From a virus (lineage: Duplodnaviria; Caudoviricetes): a stretch of DNA of 55,952 nt. Where the stretch lies: IMG/VR virus record IMGVR_UViG_3300020404_000088, positions 1 to 55,952 of that record; one strand, written 5' to 3'. Shown here one piece after another: positions 12,851 to 28,946 of the stretch. A model generated the notes under the pieces. The model was not told the origin of the DNA. It worked only from the letters and a program-made list of their open reading frames with translations, and made no database searches. Position 1 is the first letter of the stretch; every line of letters begins with the position of its first letter. The position numbers were made by a program, and so were the translations under genes.

Positions 12851-12927
<77 letters not shown>

Positions 12928-27643: not shown

Positions 27644-28066
27644 TTATTTGATTTTGATTGTCTTCGGTTTCTTTTCCTCAGGTACAATCTTTTCAAGATC
27701 AATAACAAGCATACCGTCTTTTAATTCAGCACCTTTTACAACAACATCATCTGCCAATGTAAACGATCTAGTGAATTGTCTTTTTGATATACCTTTATGT
27801 ATTGGTTCTTTTCCCTTGTCTTCACTCGGTATAGATTTAATTGTCAATTGATTTTCAGCAGTAGATACATCAATATCTTTTTTGCCAAAACCAGCAAGTG
27901 CTATCTCAATGTTCCAATTGAAATTATCTATCTTATTAATATTGTAAGGGGGATAATTTACTGTCCTCGTATTGTCTAGGTGTAAATTAAAGTGATCGAA
28001 TATATTATCGAACCCTACTGAAAAGGGTCTTAGATCATTCCAGATCCGTAGTTCTCTATTAGTCAT
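27644..28066 (-). CDS. hsp20: small heat shock protein (IbpA/Hsp20)
   Basis: NYPPYNI, IEIALAGF, HKGISKRQFTRSFTL, LKDGML.I.L..IVPEEKKPKTIKI. Confidence 0.96.
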   Translation of the reverse strand: MTNRELRIWNDLRPFSVGFDNIFDHFNLHLDNTRTVNYPPYNINKIDNFNWNIEIALAGFGKKDIDVSTAENQLTIKSIPSEDKGKEPIHKGISKRQFTRSFTLADDVVVKGAELKDGMLVIDLEKIVPEEKKPKTIKIK

Positions 28067-28071
28067 ATTTG

Positions 28072-28117
28072 CTCCTTTGTAAGCGAGTTAAATTATGATA
28101 CCTCTTATGAGCGTATC
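28072..28117 (-). promoter_or_regulatory. ROSE-like RNA thermometer in hsp20 5' UTR
   Basis: CUC(G)CUU pairs with AAGGAG with a bulged G (UCGCU motif); upstream hairpin GAUAC(G)CUC-AUAA-GAGGUAUC. Confidence 0.7.
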
Positions 28118-28125
28118 GTTATTAT

Positions 28126-28153
28126 ATATAAGAATTAATTTTTAAATTACAAG
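28126..28153 (-). promoter_or_regulatory. alphaproteobacterial RpoH(sigma32)-type promoter
   Basis: CTTG-N17-CTTATAT directly upstream of the hsp20 UTR. Confidence 0.6.
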
Positions 28154-28174
28154 TCTTATATAAAATTATTTATA

Positions 28175-28375
28175 ATCGGTAGAGGTAGGTCTCACCCTCT
28201 TTTACCCTAAAATGTCTTACCATTTTTGTCACATTTAAGTGCTACAAAGACCAATGGACCGATAAGGTAGTTTCTTTTATCACGGAGTGAAACTACCAAA
28301 CCTCACCGAATTAAGTATCTTTGCGGAAGATACTCTACCTCTTAATGTAAGGACTTACGATCAGCCTTACATTAC
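28175..28375 (-). ncRNA. putative structured non-coding RNA (~200 nt)
   Basis: ORF-free; TATAAATA at 28376-83 and 28167-74; four hairpins plus two crossing long-range helices. Confidence 0.7.
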
Positions 28376-28390
28376 TATTTATACGGCCAA

Positions 28391-28657
28391 TTACGCTGAA
28401 TAAGCGTATTTAAATGGACCATATAATTTTCTAATACCAGCAGCGATAATAGATTTAGTAGGAGTACCCAATCTGTATGAAGTACCTTTAGTTGATTCAT
28501 TGATATAAATCATGTGTCCCTCTGATCTTAATTGATCTACCATTGCTCTTGGTGATGTTAAATCAAATTTGCTTCTTAGTGCTTTCCAAGATACTGGTGC
28601 ACCTTTTGAAAGTAAATTTAATACTTTAGTTTTTTTATTTAATGTTTTTCTAGCCAT
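28391..28657 (-). CDS. small basic winged-HTH-like protein
   Basis: Start MARKTL (28657); KVLNLL..G..VSWKAL..FDLTSPRAMVDQLRSEGHMI..YRLG. Confidence 0.7.
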   Translation of the reverse strand: MARKTLNKKTKVLNLLSKGAPVSWKALRSKFDLTSPRAMVDQLRSEGHMIYINESTKGTSYRLGTPTKSIIAAGIRKLYGPFKYAYSA

Positions 28658-28733
28658 TATATTTTTCCTTTTTTTCTCTTGTTGTTTCAAATTAAACATA
28701 CGAGATATTAACAACATAAAATATCTCATAATT

Positions 28734-28946
28734 CTATATTTCGCCTTTCAGCGCTTTAATCTTTTGCTCTTTTTTATATCTTCTAGTATTCTCTTTTTTC
28801 TTCTCTCTCTTTTTAAAAGAAGGTTTTTGATAATACTGTCGATCTCTTAATTCTTTCATAACGCCATCTTTTAATAATTTTTTCTTTAAGACTCTTAATG
28901 CCTTCTCAACGTTATTATTTCTTACTTCTATTGTATATCCAGCCAT
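28734..28946 (-). CDS. rpsU: ribosomal protein bS21
   Basis: IEVRNNNVEKALRVLKKKL..DGVMKELRDRQYYQKPS. Confidence 0.93.
   Translation of the reverse strand: MAGYTIEVRNNNVEKALRVLKKKLLKDGVMKELRDRQYYQKPSFKKREKKKENTRRYKKEQKIKALKGEI

What the first reader, a model, noticed from the sequence alone, without database searches (positions are those of the whole stretch)
28175..28375. ~200-nt highly structured, probably pseudoknotted late ncRNA
ORF-free and exactly bounded by two TATAAATA boxes. Perfect helices: 28343-52/28365-74 (10 bp), 28314-21/28327-34 (8 bp), 28266-74/28289-97 (9 bp), and an interrupted stem at 28220-28257. Two long-range pairings cross each other, AGAGGUAG(28342-35)/CUACCUCU(28188-81) and AUCGGU(28263-58)/ACCGAU(28180-75), which is a pseudoknot. 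It is not a tRNA and I see no RNase P, tmRNA or hammerhead core. Its complexity suggests a ribozyme-like or protein-binding RNA, next to bS21 and hsp20.
Basis: partly seen in the sequence, partly recalled or inferred. Interest (0 to 1): 0.8.

Follow-up and report, generated by a model that had tools for sequence, protein, structure and literature searches.

The report
Two new structured RNAs in SAR11 phages
The flagged 200 bases are not one knotted RNA but two neighbouring, evolutionarily conserved structured RNA modules of phages that infect the ocean bacterium SAR11; neither matches any catalogued RNA family and their function is still unknown.

Summary
The window is a pelagimyophage fragment; genes here run on the minus strand (bS21, a small wHTH-like gene, then hsp20). 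Homologues show that the interval holds two separate RNA modules on the minus strand.

Module A (28383-28266) is a TATAAATA box, two hairpins with conserved loops, an invariant linker AGAGGUAGAG and a third hairpin. On 76 distinct sequences 98.6% of cells pair, against 87.5% when shuffled. In relatives the third hairpin forms an H-type pseudoknot and is followed by a U-run in 30 of 78 copies, but not here. A also occurs in Pelagibacter phages HTVC008M and Mosig.

Module X (28265-28173) has four helices plus a GGUC/GACC pseudoknot. On 100 distinct sequences the covariation score is 0.424, against 0.132 shuffled. X is optional next to A. It also occurs in unrelated contigs and in the cultured SAR11 phages Mosig, Kolga and Aegir, but in only 1 of 185,579 cellular species genomes.

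The pairing AGAGGUAG/CUACCUCU is not conserved, because that strand pairs locally. Rfam 15 has no match.

The function is inferred: autonomous phage non-coding RNAs, with X perhaps a processing or punctuation element.

The parts
28376..28383 (-). TATAAATA box (P1) at the 5' edge of module A; candidate T4-type late promoter
   Evidence: Exact match. TATAAATAG is invariant in 78 of 78 unique copies of the close clade. All 12 exact TATAAATA boxes of the window are on the minus strand, although the total count equals chance. Promoter activity was not tested. In bS21-adjacent relatives an RNA helix spans this box (seen by eye).
28345..28372 (-). Module A, hairpin HP1 with the conserved 9-nt loop (loop core UCGUAA)
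Evidence: 9 pairs, 5 of them with changes on both sides, 97.5% of cells paired. The inner pair C-G changes to U-A in L059.
28333..28342 (-). Module A, single-stranded linker AGAGGUAGAG
   Evidence: GAGGTAGAGT is invariant in 78 of 78, but those copies were collected with a pattern that contains these letters. The divergent copies in HTVC008M and L065 lack it.
28315..28333 (-). Module A, hairpin HP2 (7 bp, loop CCGCA)
   Evidence: 7 pairs, 2 with compensatory changes, U-G in 13 sequences, 99.6% paired.
28298..28314 (-). Module A, junction UUAAUUCGGUGAGGUUU: in relatives it holds the 5' strand of pseudoknot stem S1 and the U3 linker
   Evidence: Family-level S1 pairing is seen as GGG/CCC, GAG/CUC, AAGG/CCUU, AGGG/CCCU, GAGG/CCUC and UUAGAG/CUCUAA. 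Permutation test: 10.14 against 8.50 +/- 0.29, 0 of 2000. S1 of 4-5 bp occurs in bS21-adjacent relatives (seen by eye). In this window's subtype the S1 partner is unresolved.
28266..28297 (-). Module A, hairpin HP3 (9 bp here), which is stem S2 of the family's H-type pseudoknot; terminator-like in some relatives
   Evidence: 6 counted pairs, 5 with compensatory changes, 98.9% paired. A U-run of 4 or more follows in 30 of 78 unique copies, but the window has UUAUCGG. No terminator-like site was called here.
28173..28265 (-). Module X: autonomous four-helix pseudoknotted RNA. P1 28263-58/28180-75; pseudoknot GGUC 28252-49 with GACC 28191-88; P2 28241-39/28232-30; P3 28226-21/28214-09; P4 28200-196/28185-81
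   Evidence: Model R1 scores 97 bits, E 5e-25, and this is the only hit in the window. On 100 distinct sequences 87.3% of cells pair against 68.4% shuffled; 463 against 171 cells have double changes; covariation is 0.424 against 0.132 (0 of 500); slid controls are at most 0.074. The pseudoknot is 100% paired (UA 92, CG 8). An independent scan gave 11 of 11 X-like variants with a compensating C:G.
28167..28174 (-). Second TATAAATA box (P2), outside both folds; candidate late promoter for hsp20
   Evidence: Exact match. It lies about 100 nt upstream of the hsp20 start at 28066. In X-less relatives it follows HP3 directly (L020, L021).
27644..28066 (-). hsp20 (context gene downstream)
   Evidence: Pfam HSP20, E 3e-17.
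28391..28660 (-). Small wHTH-like gene (context gene upstream; module A starts right after its stop codon)
   Evidence: Weak Pfam HTH_39, E 0.0086. PHROG 4973, unknown function. Where other genes are inserted before hsp20, module A stays with this gene (L016, L060, L078).
28734..28946 (-). Phage bS21 (context gene)
   Evidence: Pfam Ribosomal_S21, E 3e-16.

Best explanation
The interval encodes, on the minus strand, two adjacent but evolutionarily independent structured non-coding RNA modules. They belong to a modular RNA array that pelagimyophages keep between bS21 (or the wHTH gene) and hsp20.

Module A runs from about 28372 to 28266. It would be transcribed from the TATAAATA box at its 5' edge, by read-through from the upstream gene, or both. 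It folds into a 5' hairpin with a conserved UCGUAA loop, a purine-rich single strand, a second hairpin, and a third hairpin. In the family that third hairpin is stem 2 of an H-type pseudoknot with a U-rich loop 1 and an A-rich loop 3. In some relatives it also acts as an intrinsic terminator, which would give an RNA of roughly 110 nt.

Module X (28265-28173) is a self-contained fold. A closing stem P1 stacks on P4, there are two variable hairpins, and a 4-bp pseudoknot ties the P1/P2 junction to the P4 loop. X moves between unrelated SAR11-phage genomes as a unit. It is always co-oriented with transcription and typically sits a few nucleotides after a stop codon or after another RNA module.

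Inferred mechanism (not shown): both act as RNAs in their own right rather than as switches for hsp20. X most likely works as a processing or punctuation element, either self-cleaving or recognised by a host RNase in the way tRNA-like structures are. It would separate and define the ends of the flanking RNAs. A's pseudoknotted 3' hairpin would then protect the released 3' end.

My odds: real functional structured RNAs, about 0.9. Two independent modules, about 0.9. The processing role of X, about 0.3.
For: Structure and strand.
- Module A: 22 pairs, 12 with compensatory changes; 98.6% of cells paired against 87.5 +/- 0.4% shuffled; 167 against 36.8 double-change cells; slid controls at most 0.086. 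By my sum of the table there are 89 G-U cells, which would be A-C mismatches on the other strand.
- Module X: and on a plain MAFFT alignment of 41 sequences (86.0% against 68.6%; covariation 0.452 against 0.151). G-U dominates two P3 pairs (GU in 82 and 44 of 100).

Independence of the two modules.
- X is missing from collinear relatives such as L002, L004-L009, L020 and L021.
- A metatranscriptome contig joins 28154 to 28264 without X.
- X occurs without A in most of the 99 unique copies.
- R1 finds one X in Mosig and one in a 96%-complete 58.6-kb phage, and none in HTVC008M.
- R2 finds A in HTVC008M (E 3e-10), in a 99%-complete 146-kb relative, and in Mosig. It finds none in Kolga or the 58.6-kb phage.

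Phage specificity. Cultured carriers are Pelagibacter phages Mosig, Kolga and Aegir.

Context that argues against cis-regulation and for punctuation.
- X sits after bS21 plus A in pelagimyophages.
- It sits directly after the stop codon of a 68-70-aa gene in Kolga-like phages.
- It sits just after one ORF and 12-14 nt before the ribosome-binding site of an AEP primase gene in another group.
- It sits 8-11 nt from an Rfam Flavobacterium-1 RNA, on either side, in 5 of 24 loci scanned.
- P4 runs into P1 with 0 unpaired nt in 56 junctions and 1 nt in 47 of 104, a continuous stack like the acceptor/T arm of tRNA.

Expression. Contigs from 4 marine metatranscriptome studies cover the region, some identical to the window over 111-162 nt.
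Against: - No transcript ends, strand or processing sites were observed. Logan contigs cannot show them, and DNA carry-over in the RNA libraries is not excluded.
- The processing role is an analogy only. X is not tRNA-like by ARAGORN or Rfam, only 11 of 104 copies have CCA after P1, and no known ribozyme model matches.
- About 35 invariant unpaired nucleotides in X would equally suit a ligand- or protein-binding pocket.
- X lies within 219-635 nt of a phage bS21 gene in 102 of 182 loci (one lineage) and again in the unrelated siphovirus Kolga. That hints at a link to the ribosomal protein instead, although 5 of 5 other X-bearing records have no bS21 over the Pfam cut-off.
- In this window HP3 has no U-run and its pseudoknot partner is unresolved. 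Here A and X may simply be a long structured 5' leader of a late hsp20 transcript.
- Ascertainment bias: homologues were collected with sequence patterns that fix many conserved letters, so invariance is overstated. A3 was aligned to the model's own structure; the pseudoknot was not in the model.
Confidence: 0.55

Rival explanations
1. X is an aptamer: a ligand-sensing riboswitch or a specific protein-binding RNA, for example a binding or decoy site linked to phage bS21 or to a SAR11 host factor. It would not be a processing signal.
For: Many invariant junction and loop nucleotides surround covarying stems, and a closing P1 plus a pseudoknot is the typical anatomy of aptamers. X lies near bS21 in two unrelated phage lineages, pelagimyophages and siphovirus Kolga. 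SAR11 and its phages are known to use riboswitches: a glutamine riboswitch is reported in Melnitz and Mosig (PMC9004378, passages and section 8 read), and one was seen here after hsp20 in L206.
Against: There is no consistent downstream gene class and no recognisable expression platform. Contexts range from 3' of an ORF, to 5' of a primase gene, to between other RNAs. In the window X lies upstream of the hsp20 promoters. bS21 is absent from 5 of 5 other X-bearing records, one of them 96% complete. No riboswitch family in Rfam matches.
Confidence: 0.2
2. A plus X form a cis-acting structured 5' leader that controls late hsp20 expression, by attenuation at HP3, as a thermometer, or as a stability element. 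They would not be independent RNAs.
For: The array always lies upstream of hsp20 in pelagimyophages. HP3 is terminator-like in 30 of 78 copies. In this window nothing terminator-like separates P1 from hsp20, so a P1 transcript would carry A and X as a roughly 310-nt leader.
Against: Separate promoter-like boxes (TATAAATA, and TTGACA-like in relatives) lie between the modules and hsp20, so most hsp20 transcripts would lack them. A stays with the upstream wHTH gene, not with hsp20, when genes are inserted (L016, L060, L078). Mosig has a 323-aa gene between the array and hsp20. X occurs in phages without a nearby hsp20. No ROSE or other thermometer family matches.
Confidence: 0.15
3. One reading: one ~200-nt late ncRNA bounded by two TATAAATA boxes and folded by two crossing long-range helices.
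For: Both complementarities are perfect in this window (8 bp and 6 bp). The minimum-free-energy folds use long-range pairs of the CCUACCUCUACCGA segment.
Against: The 8-bp helix is not compensated in evolution, and its 3' strand covaries with a local partner instead. X exists in more than 70 distinct copies with no linker nearby. X is an indel among close relatives.
Confidence: 0.07
4. Not functional RNA: DNA-level palindromes (protein operators, an origin) or plain terminators and repeats.
For: The region is AT-rich with promoters, and hairpins lie near gene ends.
Against: Compensatory changes with abundant G-U on one strand only. Conserved loops and junctions. A pseudoknot with compensating changes. 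A single copy per genome.
Confidence: 0.03

Closest known systems
Orphan phage-associated RNA motifs found by comparative genomics, e.g. Rfam RF02976 Flavobacterium-1 RNA
   Same: Both are compact, conserved, covarying folds of unknown function. They occur in marine phage-like contigs, are co-oriented with neighbouring genes and are single copy. Flavobacterium-1 lies 8-11 nt from X in 5 loci.
   Different: Neither A nor X scores against that model or any other Rfam 15 model. The helices, the pseudoknot and the conserved nucleotides differ.
tRNA-like structures used as processing signals next to a triple-helix-protected 3' end (MALAT1/mascRNA arrangement; tRNA punctuation). Recalled from general knowledge, not from a call.
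   Same: X has a closing stem stacked on a 5-bp hairpin stem, up to three hairpins, and a tertiary pairing between the first junction and the last loop. It follows within a few nt a hairpin-pseudoknot with a U-rich and an A-rich loop.
   Different: There is no anticodon-type arm and the last loop has 10 nt. CCA follows in only 11 of 104 copies. ARAGORN and the Rfam tRNA model do not match. RNase P cleavage and base triples are untested.
3'-UTR-derived small RNAs with their own promoter and a shared terminator (as in enterobacterial DapZ/MicL-type sRNAs; recalled)
   Same: A starts at a promoter-like box right after the stop codon of the upstream gene. It has a 5' hairpin and a conserved single-stranded stretch, and in 30 of 78 copies a hairpin plus U-run.
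   Different: No target, chaperone or transcript is known. The window's copy lacks the U-run. In bS21-adjacent relatives a helix spans the promoter box.
Two-piece tmRNA and glutamine riboswitch reported in Melnitz and Mosig (PMC9004378; abstract, passages and section 8 read)
   Same: These are pseudoknot-rich non-coding RNAs carried by the same group of T4-like phages of streamlined marine bacteria.
   Different: They lie at a different locus, next to a transcription co-activator gene in Melnitz. ARAGORN and the Rfam tmRNA models find nothing in the bS21-hsp20 region of 20 loci or in the window. No tag reading frame was seen.

Membership tests
Any Rfam 15 family (4227 models) | Covariance-model score at or above the family's gathering score | tested here: not met
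   Whole window: only tRNA-Asp at 12854-12927. Window 27900-28800 at E up to 10: only chance snoRNA-type hits outside the region. 28 further loci with A and/or X: no hit on A or X.
tRNA | Cloverleaf with a 7-nt anticodon loop and T loop, detected by ARAGORN or RF00005 | tested here: not met
   ARAGORN finds none in the region or on X in 20 loci. RF00005 does not hit at E up to 10.
Two-piece (permuted) tmRNA | tRNA-like domain ending in CCA, a tag reading frame, and detection by ARAGORN or the Rfam tmRNA models | tested here: not met
   No tmRNA call. No Rfam tmRNA hit, including Mosig at E up to 5. CCA follows P1 in 11 of 104 copies.
Intrinsic (rho-independent) terminator, for HP3 | G+C-rich hairpin followed directly by a U-run | tested here: not met
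   The window has HP3 followed by UUAUCGG, and the scan finds no site in 28067-28390. It is met in relatives: a U-run of 4 or more in 30 of 78 unique copies.
H-type pseudoknot (module A, 3' domain) | Stem 1 pairs the segment 5' of stem 2 with the loop of stem 2, supported by covariation | tested here: inconclusive
   Family level: several complementary S1 variants, and a permutation test with 0 of 2000. S1 of 4-5 bp in bS21-adjacent relatives (by eye). In the window's subtype only 3-5 bp alternatives exist (CGG/CCG or GUGAG/UUCAC) without clear compensation. Base triples are not testable.
Pseudoknot of module X | GGUC in the P1/P2 junction pairs with GACC in the P4 loop, with compensating change | tested here: met
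   100 of 100 sequences paired (UA 92, CG 8). A scan allowing any partner gave 11 of 11 X-like variants with C:G; the twelfth stretch is not clearly X. Only one of the four pairs varies.
T4-type late promoter | TATAAATA at about -10, dependent on gp55/gp33/gp45 | tested here: inconclusive
   The sequence is met at 28376-83 and 28167-74, and 12 of 12 boxes are on the gene strand, but the number of boxes equals chance. Start sites are not testable with these tools.
Riboswitch / cis-regulatory leader | Aptamer consistently upstream of one gene class, with an expression platform | tested here: not met
   Contexts of X are heterogeneous. Promoter-like boxes lie between the modules and hsp20. Ligand binding is not testable.
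Known self-cleaving ribozyme classes (hammerhead, twister, twister-sister, pistol, hatchet, HDV-like) | Match to the class model; site-specific self-cleavage | tested here: not met
   No Rfam match at E up to 10 or up to 5. Cleavage itself is not testable here, so a new class is not excluded.

The most novel reading that the evidence does not exclude
Module X is a new class of catalytic or tRNA-mimicking RNA. It would be a self-cleaving ribozyme, or a dedicated RNase P/Z substrate, that SAR11 phages of three morphotypes use as a portable 'punctuation mark' to cut polycistronic transcripts and release neighbouring small RNAs (module A, Flavobacterium-1 RNA). Alternatively it is a new aptamer class tied to phage bS21 and the host ribosome. 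Either way it would be a new functional RNA class from some of the most abundant viruses in the ocean.
Probability: 0.2. Interest if true: 0.9.

Novelty: new variant of a known kind. Interest (0 to 1): 0.72.

Why it matters
SAR11 phages are among the most numerous viruses on Earth, and their hosts rely unusually heavily on RNA-based regulation. Published genome analyses of pelagimyophages reported no regulatory RNAs in this region. PMC7029224 found none with Riboswitch Scanner, and PMC9004378 describes only a tmRNA and a glutamine riboswitch elsewhere in the genome.

Here a routine-looking intergenic gap turns out to hold two strongly covarying RNA families absent from Rfam. One of them (X) is shared by myo- and siphoviruses that can be grown in culture (Mosig, Kolga, Aegir; A also in HTVC008M). 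That makes the question directly testable with existing phage-host pairs and simple in-vitro assays. If X is a processing element, ribozyme or bS21-linked RNA, it would reveal a new layer of gene-expression control in marine viruses. It would also give function-finding leverage on the adjacent orphan motif Flavobacterium-1.

Tried and rejected
Rfam. Gathering and permissive searches on the window and on 28 other loci gave nothing on A or X. The sn1185 snoRNA hit (E 0.005, 28548-28612 plus strand) lies inside the wHTH gene and far below its gathering score, so I treat it as chance.

tRNA and tmRNA. ARAGORN was negative. I considered that the bS21-hsp20 array might be the two-piece tmRNA reported for Melnitz and Mosig. 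I rejected this: the locus differs, there is no tRNA-like domain, no tag frame and no model hit.

BLAST against GenBank phages. The window's 301 nt gave only chance hits. Homologues had to be reached through the neighbouring hsp20 gene and through patterns.

A bare 14-mer scan was a poor choice. 59 matches lacked the rest of X and were discarded.

Link between bS21 and X. It is suggestive but not general.

CCA end after X. Only 11 of 104 copies.

Metatranscriptomes. Four runs from four studies hold contigs over the region. Depth bins and contig ends are not interpretable. Two contigs that stop at 28181 in two studies are most simply assembly breaks at a strain-variable position. Parts without cover mean nothing.

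Literature (held library only; supplements closed).
- 'pelagiphage' + 'small RNA': 2 irrelevant papers.
- 'pelagiphage' + 'riboswitch': 10 papers, 3 opened.
- 'HTVC008M' + 'S21' + 'intergenic': 2 papers.
- 'Flavobacterium-1': 0 papers.
- One search was too broad to be useful.
None describes these RNAs. Table S1 of PMC9004378 and the supplements of PMC7029224 could not be seen and might list RNA features.

Pseudoknot of A. I could not count it with the count of structure pairs because MAFFT does not align the HP3 loop consistently, so I relied on my own permutation script.

Not done: complex prediction, structure prediction and protein-homology searches were not used. The metagenome-contig scan was not used.
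Full report
**What the window is**

The window is an IMG/VR viral contig fragment of 55,952 bp, estimated 31% complete. Its hsp20 region resembles Pelagibacter myophages HTVC008M and Mosig at about 68% DNA identity. Around the finding all genes run on the minus strand:
- bS21, 28946-28734 (Pfam E 3e-16);
- an 89-aa wHTH-like gene, 28660-28391 (weak HTH_39; PHROG 4973, unknown function);
- a 324-nt gap;
- hsp20, 28066-27644.

HTVC008M has the same order: CobS, bS21, a small ORF, a gap, hsp20.

**Checking the observation**

The gap folds better than every one of 100 dinucleotide shuffles on both strands (z -4.5 and -5.9). TATAAATA occurs at 28376-83 and 28167-74. All 12 exact copies in the window are on the minus strand, although the total number is what chance gives. 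ARAGORN finds no tRNA or tmRNA there. Rfam 15 has no match at gathering scores, nor at E up to 10 on a 901-nt excerpt.

**Homologues**

Using hsp20 as an anchor I fetched 80 related viral loci. BLAST of the gap against them showed a mosaic:
- positions 6-127 of the RNA-sense gap are widely conserved, at 84-90% over the first 70 nt even where Hsp20 is only about 65% identical;
- positions 128-236 or so are simply absent from many close relatives and present in others.

Reading the upstream regions side by side showed compensatory changes in each hairpin. It also showed that the variable block is a self-contained unit flanked by its own closing stem. I call the constant part module A and the optional block module X.

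**Module A (28383-28266, minus strand)**

A pattern from its most conserved stretch found 108 viral stretches, one match each. These gave 78 unique sequences (alignment A1). RNAalifold predicts three hairpins, and 12 of 22 pairs have changes on both sides. Counting on 76 distinct rows:

| Measure | Observed | Shuffled |
|---|---|---|
| Cells paired | 98.6% | 87.5 +/- 0.4% (0 of 500) |
| Double-change cells | 167 | 36.8 +/- 4.8 |
| Covariation score | 0.379 | 0.162 |

Partners slid by 1-3 columns score at most 0.086. By my sum of that table, 89 cells are G-U. They would be mismatches on the plus strand, so the RNA is on the gene strand.

Conserved unpaired parts are the HP1 loop (core UCGUAA), the linker AGAGGUAGAG and the HP2 loop CCGCA. 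The linker and part of HP2 were fixed by my search pattern, so their invariance is overstated.

Just 5' of HP3 a short G-rich segment followed by UUU is complementary to the start of the HP3 loop. Matching variants include GGG/CCC, GAG/CUC, AAGG/CCUU, AGGG/CCCU, GAGG/CCUC and UUAGAG/CUCUAA. A permutation of loops among 43 distinct combinations never reached the observed score (10.14 against 8.50 +/- 0.29; 0 of 2000). Relatedness is not controlled in that test. This is an H-type pseudoknot with a U-rich loop 1 and an A-rich loop 3.

In the window's own subtype (UUCGGUGAGG...) the partner is unclear, so I leave the knot unresolved for this copy. A U-run of 4 or more follows HP3 in 30 of 78 copies, which makes it terminator-like. 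The window has UUAUCGG, and no terminator-like site is called in the gap.

**Wider family of A**

A covariance model of A (R2) gives these results:
- HTVC008M: E 3e-10, one site in the whole genome;
- a 99%-complete 146-kb relative: one site;
- Mosig: one site plus a weaker adjacent one;
- many contigs in which bS21 is followed directly by the RNA, without the wHTH gene;
- siphovirus Kolga and a 58.6-kb phage: nothing.

In the bS21-adjacent contigs the gap is about 450 nt and reads A, then X, then a second weaker A-like unit that again ends in a hairpin-pseudoknot (R2 E 0.004-0.6 on the second unit). A helix with apparent compensatory changes encloses the NATAAATA box and HP1. I saw this by eye only.

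The window's arrangement is therefore a shortened member of a modular RNA array. Where extra genes separate the RNA from hsp20 (L016, L060, L078), A stays next to the wHTH gene.

**Module X (28265-28173, minus strand)**

Patterns from its two conserved ends showed that X occurs in many contigs that lack A. I collected 99 unique copies of 78-131 nt.

On a plain MAFFT alignment of 41 copies my proposed structure is 86.0% paired against 68.6% shuffled, with covariation 0.452 against 0.151. The structure has P1, P2, P3, P4 and the pseudoknot.

A model without the pseudoknot (R1) finds exactly one site in the window (97 bits) and one in each of 100 loci. On that alignment of 100 distinct sequences:

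| Measure | Observed | Shuffled |
|---|---|---|
| Cells paired | 87.3% | 68.4 +/- 0.6% |
| Double-change cells | 463 | 170.7 +/- 10.7 |
| Covariation score | 0.424 | 0.132 (0 of 500) |

Slid controls are at most 0.074. P4's three outer pairs each take 4-5 pair types. P1 is undercounted because one clade has an extra unpaired A. The nested helices lean towards the model.

The pseudoknot GGUC/GACC was not in the model and is paired in 100 of 100 sequences (UA 92, CG 8). Because my patterns allowed only T/C and A/G there, I ran a scan allowing any partner. Of 12 stretches with a non-T at that position, 11 are X-like and all carry the compensating C:G. The twelfth is G:T in a GC-rich sequence that scores only 24 bits. 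Only one of the four knot pairs varies, so support rests on that pair.

AUCGGU (28263-58) with ACCGAU (28180-75) is X's closing stem P1, and it is supported. CUACCUCU (28188-81) is the end of the P4 loop plus the 3' strand of P4.

In 29 distinct loci that carry both A and X, the linker is always AGAGGUAG while this segment varies. The long-range helix drops to 7/8 pairs in 22 loci and 5/8 in 2. The local P4 partner changes in step: AGUGG/CCACU and UUGGG/CCCAA stay 5/5, although two classes (17 loci) are 4/5 locally. Most X copies have no linker anywhere near. The long-range helix may form transiently in this strain, but it is not the selected fold.

**Distribution and context of X**

- In GenBank phages X is found in Pelagibacter phages Mosig (myovirus), Kolga and Aegir.
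- X is single copy: one each in Mosig and a 96%-complete 58.6-kb phage, and none in HTVC008M or two large relatives.

X is always co-oriented with its neighbours. Contexts are:
- downstream of bS21 at 219-635 nt in 102 of 182 loci (not deduplicated by contig; one lineage), with hsp20 downstream;
- immediately after the stop codon of a conserved 68-70-aa ORF in Kolga-like phages; in Kolga that ORF follows a bS21 gene;
- a few nt after one ORF and 12-14 nt before the ribosome-binding site of an AEP-type primase gene (Pfam AEP-TOTE/PriCT_1);
- in divergent intergenic regions upstream of a GP88-like gene, followed by CAAGCN heptad repeats and a TTGACA box;
- 8-11 nt from an Rfam Flavobacterium-1 RNA, on either side, in 5 of 24 loci scanned.

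Five other X-bearing records have no bS21 above the Pfam cut-off. P4's 3' strand continues into P1's 3' strand with 0 unpaired nt in 56 junctions and 1 nt in 47 of 104 distinct junctions. CCA follows P1 in only 11.

**Expression**

Of 24 listed runs, 21 hold part of a 1.4-kb stretch around the finding, at 16-31% of sampled words. I laid four runs from four studies. Contigs cover hsp20, both modules and the upstream genes. Some are identical to the window, for example 28205-28366 and 28181-28291. One contig joins 28154 to 28264 with 8 other letters between, which is a natural X-less variant.

These are assemblies. They show presence in RNA libraries only. They do not show strand, ends or level, and DNA carry-over is possible.

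**Interpretation**

Shown:
- two independent, strand-specific, covarying RNA folds;
- their modular arrangement;
- their restriction to phage sequence;
- X's presence in cultured SAR11 phages of two morphotypes.

Inferred:
- A is made from the box at its 5' edge and/or by read-through. In many relatives it ends at its own hairpin plus U-run, which gives a roughly 110-nt RNA. That resembles 3'-UTR-derived small RNAs.
- In this window the transcript probably continues through X.
- X's varied contexts, its tight abutment to stop codons and to other RNA modules, and its stacked P1/P4 with a junction-to-loop tertiary pairing suggest a portable processing or punctuation element. It could be self-cleaving or recognised like a tRNA-like structure. 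A's pseudoknotted hairpin would then be left as a protected 3' end.

I give the processing idea about 0.3. An aptamer or protein-binding role, possibly linked to bS21, gets about 0.2. A cis-leader for hsp20 gets about 0.15. These are not exhaustive.

**Comparison with known families and papers**

No Rfam family, tRNA, tmRNA, ROSE element, known riboswitch or known ribozyme class fits (see the membership table).

- Zaragoza-Solas et al. 2020 (PMC7029224; passages read) reported no riboswitches in pelagimyophages with Riboswitch Scanner and list bS21 as a core gene outside any gene cluster.
- Buchholz et al. 2022 (PMC9004378; abstract, passages and section 8 read) describe a two-piece tmRNA and a glutamine riboswitch in Melnitz, and a riboswitch in Mosig, at another locus.
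- I found no paper in the held library describing the RNAs reported here (searches; supplements closed).
- An earlier first-reader note from this scan (e1-6300790) describes the same layout next to bS21 in another genome: hairpins after TATAAATA, an H-type knot, then a roughly 105-nt closed domain. It agrees with what I derived independently.

**Verdict**

The finding resolves into two new structured-RNA families of SAR11 phages. One of them is widespread and portable. Both have solid comparative support, and their function is unknown but testable.

Noticed in passing
L288, L191, L256, L292, L296, L214, L265, L257, L083 (Mosig): about 450 nt between bS21 and hsp20: In pelagimyophages without the wHTH gene the whole bS21-hsp20 gap is a packed array. 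It reads A-like unit, then X, then a hairpin (AUUCAGG...CCUGAAU), a further conserved domain and a second hairpin-pseudoknot just before the hsp20 promoter. A helix with apparent compensatory changes (CCUCGC/GCGAGG, CCAUGCC/GGCGUGG, CCUACGC/GCGUAGG) encloses the NATAAATA box and HP1.
   Followed up: partly
L190:10376-10491, L204:2251-2372, L336:2303-2418, L240:5794-5911, L343:1040-1157: Rfam Flavobacterium-1 RNA (RF02976, 88-115 bits) lies 8-11 nt from module X. It is 3' of X in four loci and 5' of X in one. This suggests clusters of small structured RNAs in these phage contigs.
   Followed up: partly
L232, L218, L238, L204, L197, L244, L263, L278: the 20-90 nt after X: Tandem heptads of the form CAAGCNN (5-7 copies) follow X and precede a TTGACA box in contigs that carry a GP88-like gene. 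They look like iterated protein-binding sites.
   Followed up: no
window 28067-28166 (minus strand) and the same place in relatives: The proximal hsp20 5' UTR holds a conserved hairpin GAUAC-GCUCAUAAGAG-GUAUC with compensatory variants (GUACGCC...GGGUAC, GAGUUGCC...GGGACUC). Then come the conserved AACUYGCUUAA and the ribosome-binding site. TTGACA- or CTTG-type boxes precede the TATAAATA in relatives. This is the subject of another first-reader note (e1-6297636) and was not evaluated here.
   Followed up: no
L206:2499-2547: A glutamine riboswitch aptamer (RF01739, 53 bits) lies directly downstream of hsp20 in a pelagimyophage-like contig. This is consistent with published reports for Mosig and Melnitz.
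   Followed up: no
L358 (Kolga MT375529) 1956-2545: In the siphovirus Kolga a bS21 gene, a 70-aa ORF and module X follow one another within 600 nt. This is a second, independent juxtaposition of bS21 and X.
   Followed up: partly
window 28154-28264: A metatranscriptome contig (run X9) joins these two positions with ATAAAAAA between them. X-plus and X-minus variants of this phage population therefore co-occur in nature.
   Followed up: partly
window, 12 sites (2669 to 54484): All 12 exact TATAAATA boxes are on the minus strand, although the total count equals the shuffled expectation (11.8). One (12841-48) lies just downstream of tRNA-Asp.
   Followed up: no
L354:2918-3011: A GC-rich (61%) viral contig has a weak X-like match (24 bits, E 2e-4) with GGGC/GUCC at the pseudoknot. 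It may be a distant relative outside marine AT-rich phages, or a false positive.
   Followed up: no
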